Positions 6,363 through 20,000 of a stretch of DNA of 47,500 bases are shown here, in pieces. Origin of the DNA: Octopus sinensis (Eukaryota); NCBI RefSeq assembly GCF_006345805.1, contig NW_021834520.1, forward strand, positions 1-47,500. The letters are read 5' to 3'. Position numbers: made by a program. Within the stretch, counting starts at the first letter, position 1. Each line of letters starts with the position of its first letter.

Positions 6363-9300
6363 CACATATATATATACACACATATATATATATATACATA
6401 TGTGTGTATGTATATATATATATATATACATACACACATATGTATATATATATATATTTATATATATATGTATATATACTGTGCGTGTTTTTGCATGTAT
6501 AGCTAGGGTACGTGTGTTATGCACATACATGTTTATAAACACTGTTGTACTGGACAGTTTTAATTTCTACTGCAACGGTGACTACTACTATAACAACAAC
6601 AACAACAACAATAATTCTTGTTGCATCATATCTTTCTATAACGACTAAACTATGCAATACCTTCGTCAACACATCTATACAATAAGAGAGTAGGGAAAAA
6701 ATTAGAGGAGAAAGAGAGAGAAAAGGAAAGGGTGAGAAAGTAGAGCAAAAGAAAGGATGAGATTAAAGTTAGTAAGTGGAAGGAATGGTGGGGAGAGTGA
6801 AAGAATTAGAAAAGAGAGAGAGTGAGTAGAATGATAGCAAAAGAAGTGAGAGAGGGGGAGAGAGAAAATGAAATAATTATAGAGAGTGGGAGTGGGAGTA
6901 TGAGAGAGAGAGAGGGAAAGAGTGTGTGTGTATGTGTGTGTGAGCGTGTGTGCGTGTCAATGTGTGTGCGTGTGTGAGAGAGAGAGATACAGAGAGCGAA
7001 GTGAAGTGAGAGAGAGAGAGATAGGCAGAGAGCGAAGCGAAGAGAGAGAGAGAGATATAGACAGAGAGGGAAGTGACGAGAGAGAGAGAGAAAGACACAG
7101 ATATAGGGAGGCAAAGAGAGAGAGAGAGCGCATATGTGTGTGTGTGTGTGTGTTTATTTAAAAGAGAATTAGGCAGTGGTATAGAAAAAGAGTGAGAGGA
7201 TGAGTAAATGGAAGAAAATATTAACAGAGAAAGAGAGGGAAAGAGTGAGGGTGAGAGTGAGATTTTGAAAGAGAAGGGGAAAAGGAAACATAATAAAAGC
7301 ATCAGAGTGAAGAGAGAAGGGGAGAGAAAGAGTAACATACTAATAGAGAGGGGTAATGAAAATGATGGCACCACCCACAGTAGGCGTGGTTTACTGATTA
7401 AAATTTGAGGAACGCTCATCACAACATTTATTTCATACGTTGCTTCTCAGCGAAGAAGCTTGCCACGCAACGAGTACAAGGTAGACAAGAATTATATATA
7501 AACATATACGCTAACAATTACGTACTAAATTTTACTATGTACTGCTAATGATTGGAACTATTTAACGTCAAATTTGTTAACCGAGGAAAAGGAATATATA
7601 CAATAAATATATATATGTATATTATATATATTTGAAAAAACACCAATCGTAATATATGTTCTACATACATGCATGTCTGAGCGTATGTTTACAAGTGAAA
7701 ACAGATAATTTCTCATAGATAGGATTTGATATCTATCTATATGGAAATTTTGACAACTTTATTTTTTTATTGGTGATTATTTAAACTATGAAGCTAATGG
7801 AAGGCGAATGCATTTATACTCCGGCCAGACCTAGCGGTCAGTTTCCGACACCTAATCGCAGAATGCCACAAACTGTTATTAATACGGGCTCTAGCAGCGG
7901 GACCCGCATTGCTGCTCAAATTTTGGATCCTCGCCGTTTGTTAAAGGCTCGCCGAAAACTTTTCGATGGTGATTCTGAACCATCATCGGAACTGAATAAT
8001 CCATTTGGAAAGACGGCGGCGGCAGCGGCAGCTACAGAGAAGTCCGAAATCTGCCAACGATTATTAGAAGAATGCCAAAACAAATGGAACTTCGATTTGG
8101 TTAATTGTGTACCACTGGAAGGTCGTTACGAATGGGAAAAAATGGAACCAGAAAATGTACCAGGATTCTACTCGAGACCTTACACCAACCCCAAACGTCC
8201 TGTCCCAAACGTCCGAGAAAGTTATTCTCCAAATATGGTTGCCAATGGAAGTTACAGCAGAATACGATTCAGGGAAGACAGCCAGTCTAACGAAAGTACT
8301 TCTAGCTGCCCTCCTGGTATGGATGTTACAGTGCTTACTAAACTGAACAGCGGTAATAACGACAATAACAACAGAAACAACAACATAGCTACCAACAACA
8401 CTAAAGGTTGTGATCCCAATGATATTTATAATGTCCCTACTGCCTCTATCTCAACTTCTACTACGACTTGTGAACTGGAAAATACCAACGGTAAACAACA
8501 GGATATTACTGACGTGTGTAATGACAACCTAACACACAGCAGTACTTACTCTTGTAGTAATCGTAGTAGCAGTAGTACTAGTAGTAGTATTAGTAGTAGT
8601 AATAATAATAATATGGGTAGTAGTATATTGTCTACGACAAACCGACAGAGAGGTAAGTCACCTCTGTGTTTTTCAGCTTCTGTGAAAAACGTAAACACTA
8701 GTAACCTACATGGATCTCACGAACAAGACAGTAATAATGATGATAATATTAACAACAACAACAACAACAACAATAATAATGTTTTCTCTGGAAAGTCTGA
8801 CACTTGTGATACACTAACCAATAGACTCAGCGAACAGCTGGACAATAAGCAATGTTCGAATTTAACGGCAATCGATAAGGCCACCATTTCATTACCGTCA
8901 TTATCATCGTCATCATCATCATCGTCCCCTTCCTACTCTTCATCAGCACCATCATCACCATCATCTTTATCACCACCATCCTCATCACCACTATCCTCGT
9001 ATTCTTCTTCTACATTACCTGTATCATCATCATCATCATCGACAACAACAAAATCCTACTCTATGGAAACACTTAATGAGACGAAAACGTTGCCAAAACA
9101 AACCAAGATAGTCGGTAAGTCGAATTTTTAATTTATTTAATTATTATTGTTGATGTTGATTATAATTTATGATAATTGCTTGTATTGTTAATTATATCGA
9201 CCTGAAGGGATAAAAATTCAAAATAAAATTGGCCAAAGTAAGATTTAAAACCAGAACGTAAAAAGTCCGGATAAGACACCGCAATGTATTTTGTCCGAGG

Positions 9301-17000: not shown

Positions 17001-20000
17001 GTGGATATATAATCCTAAATGCGCGCGCGCTTCTTTTCTCTCTATCTCTTCTCTTCTGTTGTTAATCCAAACAATTCCCCTTCCCTTTCCCGAAACAAAA
17101 AAGAATTTTGTATTGTGTAACAAAATAATTTCATTATTATTATTATTATTATAAAAAAATATTGTAATCCAATAATCTTGATTTATTTTACTGCAAGTTT
17201 AGAATAAAAATTAAAAGTAGACACTTTTTTTTACTTTTTTGCAGATTTTATGCCACACAGAAAGCGAACGCTATCTTATTGCCACACTGGAAACAGAGAA
17301 AAAAAATTAAGGAAAGAATAAAAAGAATCAACCCCATATTGCTGTAACAATCAACGTGAGTTTTGTTTTTGTTTAAAAAAGCATTCAACTTCTTTTAGCT
17401 GCTTTGCTCGAAGATCTCCGAGGGATGCGATAATCTTAGTTTAGTTATCTCCCTTGGTATTAATGTGTGTGTGCGTGCTTCATATTATAATATTTCGTGT
17501 GTAGAATAGATGTACGACTGCTTTAGAGCCACGTAAAATTGTCTCCCGTCTGCTTCCAGCGTAGTGTTTTTTTTTTAGCTACGACTAAATTCTGGATGTA
17601 CAGAGCAAAATATAGGAGAAATTACGATAAACATAAGCTCAAGTTTATTATATATCCTTTGTTCTTTCGACGTTTCACCGTTGAACTCTTCATTTTGCTC
17701 TTCCGGGGGAGGGCACTTTATTTGTTATTATTACATTATGTTTATGGCCGACACTTAGAAATAAAAATGCTTGTATAATATAAACTATCATAATACGGAC
17801 TAATTAGATCCAGCAAGTACTCGCACGAAGGAATCCTCGTAAAAGCGTGAATGCTCAAATCCCGTATGAAATGTCGTTATCGCGAGACTTTTTATGTAGT
17901 CTTTTATTATCTCCCTTACTTTTCCAGAAAGTTATTTTTTCTACTAATTTCTGATTAATGTATAAATGCATATTGTATTGTTTTGTGTTGTATAAATATA
18001 GTATATAGTGTAGTGCGTGAATTATATTATGAGAAAGAAATGCACATAGGTACAATATATGTCGATGCAAAATCTAACGCCATAGGTTTTTTTTTTTTTT
18101 TACATATATAGTTAGTCTCAAAGTAAAATAATAAATAGTACGTATCGTTTTTCTCTCGATTATAAACTATAAGATCTCGATTCGGAGATCTTTTAGAAAT
18201 TAATCTAGAGAGATCGTATAATAACAGTCTACATTATAATAGAGTTCATATTATATAATATATAGATTTATTTTGCTATGAGGTTGTACAGGTGGGAAAA
18301 CATCCCATGTTTTCAGTTTTCCTAGTCAATTTAGTTACGGCATACCTATACTATACAACTAACCGTTTTCTCCCCGCAAACGATCCAACTTCATTTCCGG
18401 CCAACTCTCAGAAAAATGAATATTTTTTTTTCAATTAAAATTTTCCGTGAAGACGCTTCAGATTGTATAGATTTGAGATTGTATTGGACTTTGCAGGGCG
18501 GGGACGACACTTGTGTAATATGTGTATGCCTTGGTTACCTAGTAAAATGATTCCTATTATATATAGTATGTCTGTCTTAATTAATTACCTTTAAATTTTG
18601 CATTTTTAAATATTTATTTTATTTCTATATTTTTTTTTATTGCAGTTATTTCACAGAATGAACTCACTCAAGCAATAAATAAAAGAATACGTATATACAA
18701 GGACACTTCGTGACAAAATGAAATGGTCGCATCGTGAAGAATTTTCAAATACAAACAAGACTATAATTTATATATGTATATATATATATAATATTAATAT
18801 CTTGGTTGAGAAACCAGACTGTTCTTTCCACTCTATGGTGCTTTTATGGCAGCACAAAAAAGTTACTGATGATGACATTAAAATACATATGTAATTTTAA
18901 AGGCTGCGAAGAGACTGAAATAAGAATGCTGGAAGAAAAAGCAAAATTTATTCAACTCAACTCCTATAGCTGGAAAAAACATTCACCCCCACCCCCCTCT
19001 TGGGAGAAGTGTGATTCCTTTGCAGAGAAATGCTTGAGAAAAAGCTATTTAGAATAATTGAGTGAAATCATCTATTATCTCTGAGTTTAAAAAACCCTTT
19101 TTGGCATTGAAATTATTCTGTCAAATATATAATACTTCAATAATATTCATTGTTTTGAATTAATCATGTATATTATCTCGTAAGGTTTTCAATGATGTTC
19201 GTTTATTTTAAAGAATGACATTGTAGGATTGGTGTAAATGGCCTGACCTGGCTAATTTGAATGAACACACGGAAGAATAATTTGAGCCAGATATGTCTGA
19301 TTCAAATGCTAAAAAGGGTTAAGGAATCGTAAGGCACTTGCATCATTTCCCCTCACATCCAGTCTTTTGTGGTTTTTATAAAGATCTCTCTCTACATTGA
19401 TTTATTAATTTAAAATATTGAACTGGAGGTTTAGGTTCAAAGAATATATATTATTATTAGATATAGGAGAGTATGAGAGTTTGTGCGTGTGTGTATATGA
19501 GTGTGAAATTTTCATTCAACTGTTGCATTCCTTTTTTTTTTTTTATGAAATGACAAAAATCAATCACATCATTAAATTTATATTTTTATATTTAAATATC
19601 ATTCTTATATAAAAAACAATAATTGAAAAAAAAAAAAGTTAAGGTAGAAAGAACAATTCAATCTTAATGTGATAATATTTTGCTGTTGCAGAAATCACTT
19701 CAGGGAATCAATGTATGTTTTTTTATACCAATATAATAATGATAAATAATTAAAATTTAATCAGTTTGTTATGAAGAAGAAAATCTGCAAACATCAAAAG
19801 TAGTGTTTAAAAGAAGCTTATGTGTTGTGTAGTAATTCTGATTAAAAAACAAAGAAATTAAGTTAGCTAAGTTAGCTTAACGGTCCAGCATTGAACAATA
19901 TAAAAATATTTTTCCACTGCTCGATGTACGATTTGCTGGGACCAAGAAGGAATCATTATTTTTAATTAACTTTTTCAACTTAAACCCCCCCCCCCATACA

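What the first reader, a model, noticed from the sequence alone, without database searches (positions are those of the whole stretch)
7788..17321. A CDK-inhibitor gene nested inside the intron of its own paralogue
Seen: a Cip/Kip gene (exons 7788-9114 and 17245-17321) whose 8.1-kb intron holds a second, same-strand CDI-domain ORF (13686-14351) with its own GC-box/TATA promoter. Known: Drosophila has one Cip/Kip gene (dacapo), C. elegans has two adjacent ones (cki-1/cki-2), and the three vertebrate genes are unlinked. Nested genes are usually antisense to, and unrelated to, their host. Inference: a nested CKI pair in which the two units could be coupled by transcriptional interference, shared enhancers or competition for the inner poly(A) site. 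I do not recall this arrangement being described, but could not search.
Basis: partly seen in the sequence, partly recalled or inferred. Interest (0 to 1): 0.9.

Follow-up and report, generated by a model that had tools for sequence, protein, structure and literature searches.

The report
Octopus CDK-inhibitor gene nested in paralogue
An octopus cell-cycle brake gene of the p21/p27 type carries a second, shorter and very divergent copy of itself inside its last intron on the same strand, and both copies have been kept intact across octopods, which is an unusual but not revolutionary gene arrangement.

Summary
The sequence observation holds. Both ORFs exist at the stated coordinates and both pass Pfam CDI (PF02234): 41.2 and 30.5 bits against a cut-off of 25.

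The proposed 9114->17245 junction has a consensus-like donor and a strong acceptor. It reproduces the C-terminus of the NCBI protein "cyclin-dependent kinase inhibitor 1B [Octopus vulgaris]", which is 98% identical to exon 1. The junction also completes a PIP-degron-like motif split by the intron. No reads could be examined.

The inner 221-codon ORF is full length in a second, unnamed record (83%) and in Argonauta hians (51%). Neutral simulations kept the frame open in 0 of 1000 runs at that divergence. It is therefore a maintained gene, not a relic.

- The inner protein keeps the CDK-binding segment.
- It lacks the PIP-like tail, and its cyclin-binding RxL motif is altered.
- A profile of it found no relatives outside octopods among 1.84 billion representatives.

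Still untested: whether the inner gene has its own promoter, any coupling between the two genes, and nesting in other species. My searches found no published description.

Verdict: a real nested paralogue pair, a new variant of a known kind, of moderate interest.

The parts
7788..9114 (+). Outer (host) Cip/Kip gene, first coding exon: 442 codons plus 1 base (phase 1). An in-frame stop lies directly upstream at 7782-7784.
   Evidence: ORF list. Pfam CDI 41.2 bits. 98% identical to NCBI O. vulgaris CDKN1B, P0004. p27 chain 1jsu_C at E 1.2e-10.
7953..7964 (+). Outer protein R56-K57-L58-F59: RxL-type cyclin-binding motif. Invariant in window, O. vulgaris and Argonauta.
   Evidence: Alignment A2 invariant columns. 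The role of the motif is from established knowledge of Cip/Kip proteins (recalled).
8043..8141 (+). Outer CDI core (aa 86-118), the CDK-binding segment.
   Evidence: residue-by-residue alignment to p27.
9099..9114 (+). First half of the PIP-degron-like motif (Q438-T-K-I-V plus the first base of the split D codon), ending at donor TCG|GTAAGT.
   Evidence: K-Q-T-K-I-V is invariant in the three outer proteins, amid diverged low-complexity sequence.
9115..17244 (+). 8130-nt phase-1 intron of the outer gene; it holds the inner gene.
   Evidence: Derived from the donor and acceptor and from the C-terminus of P0004.
9222..9227 (+). AATAAA 91 nt after the read-through stop (9129-9131). Possible intronic poly(A) site giving an exon-1-only, PIP-less isoform.
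   Evidence: Inference only.
12966..12997 (+). GC box (GGGCGG) and TATAAATA, candidate inner promoter. It lies in the local CpG o/e maximum: 1.48 over 12901-13685.
   Evidence: Function not shown.
13618..13635 (+). Acceptor-like site TTTTTTTGTTGTTGTAG|TC, 51 nt upstream of the inner ATG. Suggests a 5'UTR intron. An in-frame stop at 13665-13667 blocks any N-terminal extension.
   Evidence: direct reading.
13686..14351 (+). Inner (nested) gene: intronless 221-codon CDS for a divergent CDI-domain protein.
13860..13964 (+). Inner CDI core (aa 59-93).
   Evidence: Profile A1 against p27 chain 6p8e_C, E 1.1e-3.
15026..15031 (+). First poly(A)-signal variant (ATTAAA) after the inner stop; another at 15323. 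The first AATAAA comes only at 16350.
   Evidence: Usage unknown.
17245..17321 (+). Outer gene, last coding exon. It supplies the second half of the PIP-degron-like motif (D-F-M, then P-H-R-K), a basic tail, and the stop at 17319-17321.
   Evidence: Identical to the last 25 residues of P0004.

Best explanation
The locus holds two paralogous Cip/Kip-type CDK-inhibitor genes of an octopus, one inside the other on the same strand.

The host gene encodes a canonical inhibitor:
- an RxL cyclin-binding motif;
- a CDK-binding CDI segment;
- a long Ser/Asn-rich disordered region;
- a C-terminal PIP-degron-like motif plus basic tail that is split by an 8.13-kb phase-1 intron.

Inside that intron sits an intronless 221-codon gene for a short, strongly diverged CDI protein. 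It keeps the CDK-binding segment but has an altered RxL region and no PIP-like tail.

Shown here: both ORFs, both CDI hits, the splice-site signals, identity of the junction with an annotated O. vulgaris protein, and conservation of the inner ORF in Argonauta.

Inferred:
- Both proteins inhibit cyclin-CDK.
- The host protein is removed in S phase through PCNA and CRL4-Cdt2, as Dacapo and p21 are, while the nested protein escapes that route. That would divide labour between a replication-coupled and a stable brake.
- The inner gene has its own promoter near 12966-12997.
- Host transcription has to read through the inner promoter and poly(A) sites, so the two cannot be regulated fully independently.

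The most economical origin is a DNA-level duplication of the first coding exon, or of a tandem copy whose last exon was lost or captured. It predates the Octopus-Argonauta split.
For: CDI membership.
- Pfam CDI is above the cut-off in both window ORFs and in 4 of 4 relatives P0002-P0005.
- Both align to the p27 kinase-inhibitory segment, including the Tyr aligned with the first Tyr of p27's F-Y-Y.
- The ESM Atlas first hit scores 0.90, and the call's single Pfam set for the hits is CDI.

Junction.
- Donor and acceptor were read directly.
- Of 2024 AG sites downstream of 9114, 72 complete a loose Qxx[I]xx[FY][FYMLWI] motif. Site 17245 has the highest pyrimidine count of those 72 (17 of 20).
- By my reading of that list, 17245 is the only one of the 10 D-first candidates with basic residues at +3 and +4.
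- P0004 (O. vulgaris, NCBI) ends with exactly the exon-1 end followed by the exon-2 residues.
- The published O. vulgaris annotation pipeline used Iso-Seq, RNA-seq, PASA and EVM (passages). I did not confirm that P0004 comes from it.
- K-Q-T-K-I-V at the exon end is invariant in 3 of 3 outer proteins.

Inner gene is maintained.
- Full-length orthologues of 224 aa (83%) and 225 aa (51%, Argonauta hians), with the same start and the same last four residues.
- Substitution-only neutral simulation kept the frame open in 52 of 1000 runs at 85% identity and in 0 of 1000 at 53%.
- Window-to-Argonauta identity is 53% for the inner protein and 45% for the outer.

Linkage. Both Argonauta proteins are listed on a contig of the same length, 5,730,810 bp.

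Inner CDS is not spliced onward. Of 30 GT sites in 13686-14420, 10 are phase-compatible. The only strong one (13947, 7 of 9 matches) cuts the CDI core.

PIP degron. Definition from passages of PMC8871960. Dacapo is degraded through a PIP degron according to a review passage.
Against: - No RNA data were examined. The junction rests on one annotated protein plus sequence logic.
- The Argonauta host model (P0005) reads through the donor instead of splicing. That gives no support for the second exon there.
- The PIP-like motif is imperfect: V instead of T at position 5 and M instead of F/Y at position 8.
- The promoter composite is only weakly non-random: 11 of 100 shuffles had one.
- The acceptor-like site at 13634/13635 would allow the inner exon to be fed from upstream exons.
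- There is no canonical AATAAA within 2 kb of the inner stop.
- Nesting in Argonauta or any other species could not be checked.
- Absence of inner-type proteins outside octopods may reflect unannotated small ORFs.
Confidence: 0.65

Rival explanations
1. One transcription unit with alternative coding exons. A shared upstream promoter and 5' exon splices either to the 7788 exon (then on to 17245) or to the acceptor-like site at 13635. The second route would give an mRNA that encodes only the inner protein and ends at an intronic poly(A) site. On this reading the 'nested gene' is an isoform, comparable in layout to variable-first-exon loci (recalled comparison).
For: - Strong acceptor-like site TTTTTTTGTTGTTGTAG|TC lies 51 nt before the inner ATG.
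- The promoter composite is only weakly non-random.
- CpG o/e stays near 1 across the whole 7.4-18.5 kb block, as if it were one domain.
Against: - The Argonauta annotation lists the inner protein as a separate gene product.
- GC box, TATA and the local CpG o/e peak (1.48) sit where an independent start would be expected.
- The acceptor is equally explained by a private 5'UTR intron.
Confidence: 0.17
2. Simple tandem neighbours. The upstream gene ends by reading through the donor to the stop at 9129-9131 and is polyadenylated after the AATAAA at 9222. The 17245 exon would then be an annotation artefact or belong to another transcript.
For: - An in-frame stop lies 17 nt past the donor, and AATAAA lies 91 nt after it.
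- The Argonauta model P0005 reads through the homologous donor.
Against: - P0004 contains the spliced C-terminus.
- The exon completes the PIP-like motif with basic residues at +3 and +4, and it has the best pyrimidine tract of the 72 candidates.
- K-Q-T-K-I-V is conserved right up to the donor, while the read-through residues differ between Octopus and Argonauta.
- The read-through form could still exist as a minor PIP-less isoform.
Confidence: 0.1
3. The inner ORF is a decaying duplicate or retrocopy with no function of its own.
For: - The CDS is intronless.
- A-runs lie about 300-380 nt after the stop (direct reading).
- It is very divergent from the host: 33% over 48 aa.
- No relatives were detected beyond octopods.
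Against: - The frame is intact, with conserved start, CDI core and C-terminus, in 3 of 3 sequences.
- 0 of 1000 neutral simulations stayed open at the Argonauta divergence.
- The Octopus-Argonauta split carries a fossil lower bound of about 29 Ma (passage).
Confidence: 0.04

Closest known systems
Vertebrate Cip/Kip inhibitors (p27Kip1 in the solved cyclin A-CDK2 complex, PDB 1jsu; p21)
   Same: Both octopus proteins align to the CDK-binding part of the p27 kinase-inhibitory domain. The host protein also has an RxL motif and a C-terminal PIP-like motif of the kind described for p21 (passages).
   Different: The octopus host protein carries about 300 residues of Ser/Asn-rich low complexity. The nested protein has an altered RxL region and no PIP-like tail.
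Drosophila dacapo
   Same: An invertebrate Cip/Kip inhibitor degraded in S phase through a PIP degron (review passage citing Swanson et al. 2015). The host gene here looks like that type.
   Different: dacapo is a single gene with no nested paralogue (recalled). The primary paper was not held, so its motif could not be compared.
C. elegans cki-1/cki-2 and cestode cki-1/cki-2
   Same: These are lineage-specific duplications of the single invertebrate CKI gene. C. elegans encodes two (passage). Cestodes have a second paralogue (passage).
   Different: Those pairs are described as separate genes. Adjacency of cki-1 and cki-2 is recalled only. None is reported as nested.
Same-strand nested genes in Drosophila (Lee & Chang 2013, PMC3814207)
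   Same: Same-strand nested genes are the minority, tend to be single-exon and often arise by duplication (passages). The inner gene fits all three.
   Different: The passages I read do not mention cases where the nested gene is a paralogue of its own host. Here host and guest share a domain family.

Membership tests
Cip/Kip CDK inhibitors (Pfam CDI, PF02234) | CDI domain match above Pfam's gathering score | tested here: met
   Outer 41.2 bits and inner 30.5 bits against a cut-off of 25. Relatives P0002-P0005 score 26.6-40.5 bits, 4 of 4 above the cut-off.
Cip/Kip CDK inhibitors (Pfam CDI, PF02234) | CDK-binding segment alignable to solved p27, with the W-N-[FY]-D, G-x-Y-x-W and following Tyr positions kept | tested here: met
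   Outer against 1jsu_C, E 1.2e-10. Inner profile against 6p8e_C, E 1.1e-3. These positions are identical in 6 of 6 octopod sequences.
Cip/Kip CDK inhibitors (Pfam CDI, PF02234) | N-terminal RxL(F) cyclin-binding motif | tested here: inconclusive
   Outer: R-K-L-F, invariant in 3 of 3. Inner: only C-R-x-x-R-[FL]-D, which does not fit RxL cleanly.
Cip/Kip CDK inhibitors (Pfam CDI, PF02234) | Binds and inhibits cyclin-CDK complexes | not testable with these tools
A biochemical assay is needed.
Nested (intronic) protein-coding genes | Guest gene lies entirely within one intron of the host | tested here: met
   Met at gene-model level only. The inner ORF 13686-14351 lies inside 9115-17244. The junction agrees with P0004. 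No reads were examined.
Nested (intronic) protein-coding genes | Guest has its own promoter and 3' end | tested here: inconclusive
   The GC-box/TATA composite occurs once against 0.11 expected, and 11 of 100 shuffles had one. CpG o/e peak of 1.48. ATTAAA at 15026 and 15323. An acceptor-like site at 13635 allows other models.
PIP-degron substrates of CRL4-Cdt2 | Canonical PIP box Q-x-x-[LVIM]-x-x-[FY]-[FY] | tested here: not met
   In P0004 and the window, Q, I and F are at positions 1, 4 and 7, but position 8 is M. Consensus from PMC8871960.
PIP-degron substrates of CRL4-Cdt2 | T-D at positions 5-6 and basic residues at +3/+4 | tested here: inconclusive
   D6, R(+3) and K(+4) are present, but position 5 is V, not T. 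The inner protein has no such motif.
Retrocopy | Intronless copy of the whole parental mRNA with a poly(A) remnant and target-site duplications | tested here: inconclusive
   The CDS is intronless. There is no counterpart of the host's last-exon residues. Only short A-runs lie downstream. Flanking duplications were not looked for specifically and would be eroded at this age.

The most novel reading that the evidence does not exclude
The octopod lineage built a two-tier cell-cycle brake from one gene. Duplication of the first coding exon inside the last intron gave a second promoter and a second CDI exon. That exon then acquired a stop near the old exon end: both exon products carry a Q four to five residues before their end. 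It became a stable, PCNA-independent inhibitor. The host keeps the replication-coupled degron, which can only be added by splicing across the guest. Transcription or polyadenylation of the guest would then directly prevent completion of host mRNA. That would make the two brakes mutually exclusive in a cell: a hard-wired switch between proliferating and quiescent states, conserved for at least about 29 My.
Probability: 0.15. Interest if true: 0.65.

Novelty: new variant of a known kind. Interest (0 to 1): 0.42.

Why it matters
Cip/Kip inhibitors decide when cells leave the cycle, and most invertebrates are thought to manage with one.

A conserved second copy in octopods, lacking the degron-like tail and sitting inside the intron that the host must splice across to gain that tail, has two uses. 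It is a clean natural test case for whether same-strand nesting couples the expression of two genes with related functions. It is also a candidate regulator of the long-lived neural progenitor and growth programmes of cephalopods.

There is a practical annotation point too. The Argonauta host model appears to miss its last exon, and small intronic ORFs like the inner gene are easily left unannotated.

Tried and rejected
Wider relatives.
- The inner protein found only 3 proteins among 295 candidates.
- Its 3-sequence profile found 2 proteins at E<=0.001 among 1.84 billion representatives.
- Outer exon 1 found 2 among 8000 scored candidates.
- Outer residues 1-140 found 2 among 373.
- No squid, cuttlefish, nautilus or other mollusc sequence was obtained, so no family tree and no dating of the duplication was possible.

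Other checks that led nowhere.
- Rfam gave 0 hits and ARAGORN 0 tRNAs, so no RNA gene explains the intron.
- Four other window ORFs had 0 Pfam families.
- The inner ORF splicing onward to 17245 is rejected. The only strong phase-compatible donor (13947) cuts the CDI core, and the C-terminus is conserved up to the stop.
- Splicing of host exon 1 to 13635 would be out of frame with the inner ORF (one search list, entry 13659 region, and direct reading).

Not attempted.
- Structure prediction: the Atlas model of the inner protein has pLDDT 0.50, as expected for a disordered inhibitor.
- Complex prediction: no CDK or cyclin sequence was available.
- The primary Dacapo PIP-degron paper was not held.

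Literature. Searches for this arrangement found nothing relevant: 31 papers for 'octopus' plus 'cyclin-dependent kinase inhibitor', none on this locus in the 15 listed; 0 papers; 2 unrelated papers.

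
Full report
WHAT IS IN THE SEQUENCE

The window (47,500 nt, no N, 35.6% G+C) is repeat-rich, AT-rich animal DNA. Its best protein match is to Octopus vulgaris at 98% identity. It is therefore from an octopus close to, but not identical with, that reference. I did not take it for human.

Between 7,000 and 18,000 there are 12 ATG-started ORFs of 60 aa or more. Both pass Pfam CDI (PF02234): 41.2 bits over aa 86-118 and 30.5 bits over aa 59-93, against a cut-off of 25. 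Four other long window ORFs that I scanned had no Pfam family.

The two proteins resemble each other only in the CDI core: 16 of 48 identical, E 1e-5. Both align to the CDK-binding part of solved p27. The outer protein hits 1jsu_C at E 1.2e-10. A 3-sequence profile of the inner protein hits 6p8e_C at E 1.1e-3.

THE HOST GENE AND ITS INTRON

Exon 7788-9114 is 1327 nt, so it ends in phase 1, at TCG|GTAAGT. At 17244/17245 there is a long pyrimidine tract followed by GCAG|AT. Frame 17247-17321 gives 24 residues and a stop.

The exons were searched separately. The junction was judged against a database protein.

P0004, "cyclin-dependent kinase inhibitor 1B [Octopus vulgaris]" (NCBI/UniRef, 466 aa), is 98% identical to exon 1. 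It ends with the last residues of exon 1 followed by exactly the residues of the 17245 exon. The published O. vulgaris annotation combined Iso-Seq, RNA-seq, PASA, ab initio predictors and EVM (passages read). I could not see which evidence supports this particular model, nor confirm that P0004 comes from that annotation.

An internal argument supports the same junction. Read across it, P0004 has Q-T-K-I-V-D-F-M followed by P-H-R-K. This matches the PIP-degron description in PMC8871960 (passages) as follows:
- Matches: Q1, I4, D6, F7, and basic residues at +3 and +4.
- Misses: position 5 is V, not T, and position 8 is M, not F/Y.

I scanned all 2024 AG sites downstream of 9114. Of these, 72 complete a loose version of the motif, and 17245 has the best pyrimidine tract among them (17 of 20). 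By my reading of the printed list, it is the only one of the 10 D-first candidates with basic residues at +3 and +4.

K-Q-T-K-I-V at the very end of exon 1 is invariant in the window, O. vulgaris and Argonauta hians, amid otherwise diverged low-complexity sequence.

Evidence against: the Argonauta model P0005 (499 aa) reads through the donor instead of splicing. It gives no independent support for the last exon. A read-through isoform is also possible in Octopus, because a stop lies at 9129-9131 and an AATAAA at 9222.

THE NESTED GENE

The inner ORF lies wholly inside 9115-17244 on the same strand. An in-frame stop at 13665-13667 fixes its start codon.

It is conserved full length in an unnamed record (P0002, 224 aa, 83%) and in Argonauta hians (P0003, "hypothetical protein Ahia01_001024500", 225 aa, 51%). 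That makes 3 proteins among 295 candidates. In the alignment, the first 12 residues, the CDI core, a C-F-Y-S-Y-Y block and the last four residues are invariant.

A substitution-only neutral simulation kept the frame open in 52 of 1000 runs at 85% protein identity and in 0 of 1000 at 53%. A random 221-codon open frame is expected 0.008 times per window. The Octopus-Argonauta split has a fossil lower bound of about 29 Ma (calibration passage).

The inner protein is no less conserved than the host: 53% against 45% identity to Argonauta. It is a maintained gene. True dN/dS could not be computed, because no orthologous DNA was available.

The ESM Atlas holds the inner sequence letter for letter. 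Its first hit scores 0.90, the call's single Pfam set for the hits is CDI, and its model has pLDDT 0.50. That is consistent with a disordered inhibitor.

Of 30 GT sites in or just after the ORF, 10 are in the phase needed to join exon 17245. The only strong one (13947) would cut the CDI core. The CDS therefore ends at its own stop.

HOW THE TWO PROTEINS DIFFER

| Feature | Host protein | Inner protein |
|---|---|---|
| RxL-type cyclin-binding motif | R-K-L-F, invariant in 3 of 3 | only C-R-x-x-R-[FL]-D |
| CDK-binding core | present | present |
| Ser/Asn-rich region | about 300 residues | absent |
| PIP-like motif and basic tail | present | absent |

Six of six octopod sequences share the W-N-[FY]-D, G-x-Y-x-W and following P-x-x-Y positions.

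From this I infer that both proteins bind CDKs, but that only the host is coupled to PCNA and CRL4-Cdt2 destruction in S phase. A review passage reports this for Dacapo, and passages of PMC8871960 describe it for p21.

TRANSCRIPTION UNITS

- GGGCGG (12966) and TATAAATA (12990) form the only such composite in the window. It is expected 0.11 times, and 11 of 100 shuffles had at least one.
- CpG o/e peaks at 1.48 over 12901-13685.
- An acceptor-like site at 13634/13635 lies 51 nt upstream of the ATG. It points either to a private 5'UTR intron or to input from upstream exons.
- After the inner stop the first signals are ATTAAA at 15026 and 15323. The first AATAAA comes at 16350.

Independence of the inner gene is therefore plausible but not shown.

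COMPARATIVE REACH AND ITS LIMITS

The inner profile found only its own two cluster representatives at E<=0.001 among 1.84 billion. Host residues 1-140 found only P0004 and P0005 among 373 candidates.

Both Argonauta proteins are listed on a contig of 5,730,810 bp. That suggests linkage, but not necessarily nesting.

The following were closed or unsuitable, so synteny in other cephalopods stayed unchecked:
- Genome contigs holds only bacteria and archaea, so it was not used.
- No eukaryotic genome collection was available.
The CKI tree of PMC12693960 (its fig. S3) and the annotation tables of the octopus and argonaut genome papers may bear on these claims.

WHAT IS KNOWN

- A 2025 paper notes an Octopus sinensis CKI grouping with mammalian CDKN1B, and a cestode-specific second cki paralogue (passages).
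- C. elegans has two Cip/Kip genes (passage). That they are adjacent is recalled only.
- In Drosophila, 71.27% of nested genes are antisense. Same-strand ones tend to be single-exon, and nested genes commonly arise by duplication (passages of PMC3814207).

This case fits that pattern. What is unusual is that host and guest are paralogues. My literature searches listed no paper describing a CKI, or an octopus gene, nested in its paralogue. The library does not cover most subscription journals.

VERDICT

The nested-paralogue model is well supported at gene-model level. The regulatory interpretation is open. This is a new variant of a known kind, of moderate interest.

Noticed in passing
window 20001-28000 versus 7401-18500: CpG observed/expected is 0.20-0.40 across 20-28 kb but 1.08 across the CKI locus. 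The sharp change near 18.5 kb suggests a boundary between an unmethylated domain and a germline-methylated region, possibly the body of a neighbouring gene.
   Followed up: no
window 7400-18700: None of the interspersed repeat families found elsewhere in the window has a copy inside the CKI locus, including the 8.1-kb intron. Those families are D14 (4271, 4455, 25130, 31272, 31446), D17 (1651, 27859, 29583, 35547) and D18-D20. The intron may be under regulatory constraint.
   Followed up: partly
window 9129-9227: The host exon-1 frame reads through the donor to a stop at 9129-9131, with AATAAA at 9222. This could give an intronically polyadenylated isoform without the PIP-like tail. The Argonauta model P0005 has such a read-through end.
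   Followed up: partly
window 13068-13265: A 65-codon upstream ORF, with further ATGs, lies in the putative 5'UTR of the inner gene. If it is retained in the mRNA it would damp translation.
   Followed up: no
window 37776-38750, minus strand: Two near-identical 95-96-aa frames (37776-38066 and 38287-38574) sit in a 282-nt direct repeat spaced 508 nt apart, 95% identical. The one frame scanned (37776-38066) had no Pfam family. Inverted partners lie at 35922-36111.
   Followed up: partly
window 39561-39680: A perfect (CTT)40 microsatellite. Long (AT)n arrays lie at 6024-6478, 27584-28415 and 44417-44946.
   Followed up: no
window 30185-30721 (-) and 43470-43913 (+): Open frames of 178 aa and 147 aa that look like transposon remnants by eye. 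Neither has a Pfam match at E<=0.01.
   Followed up: partly
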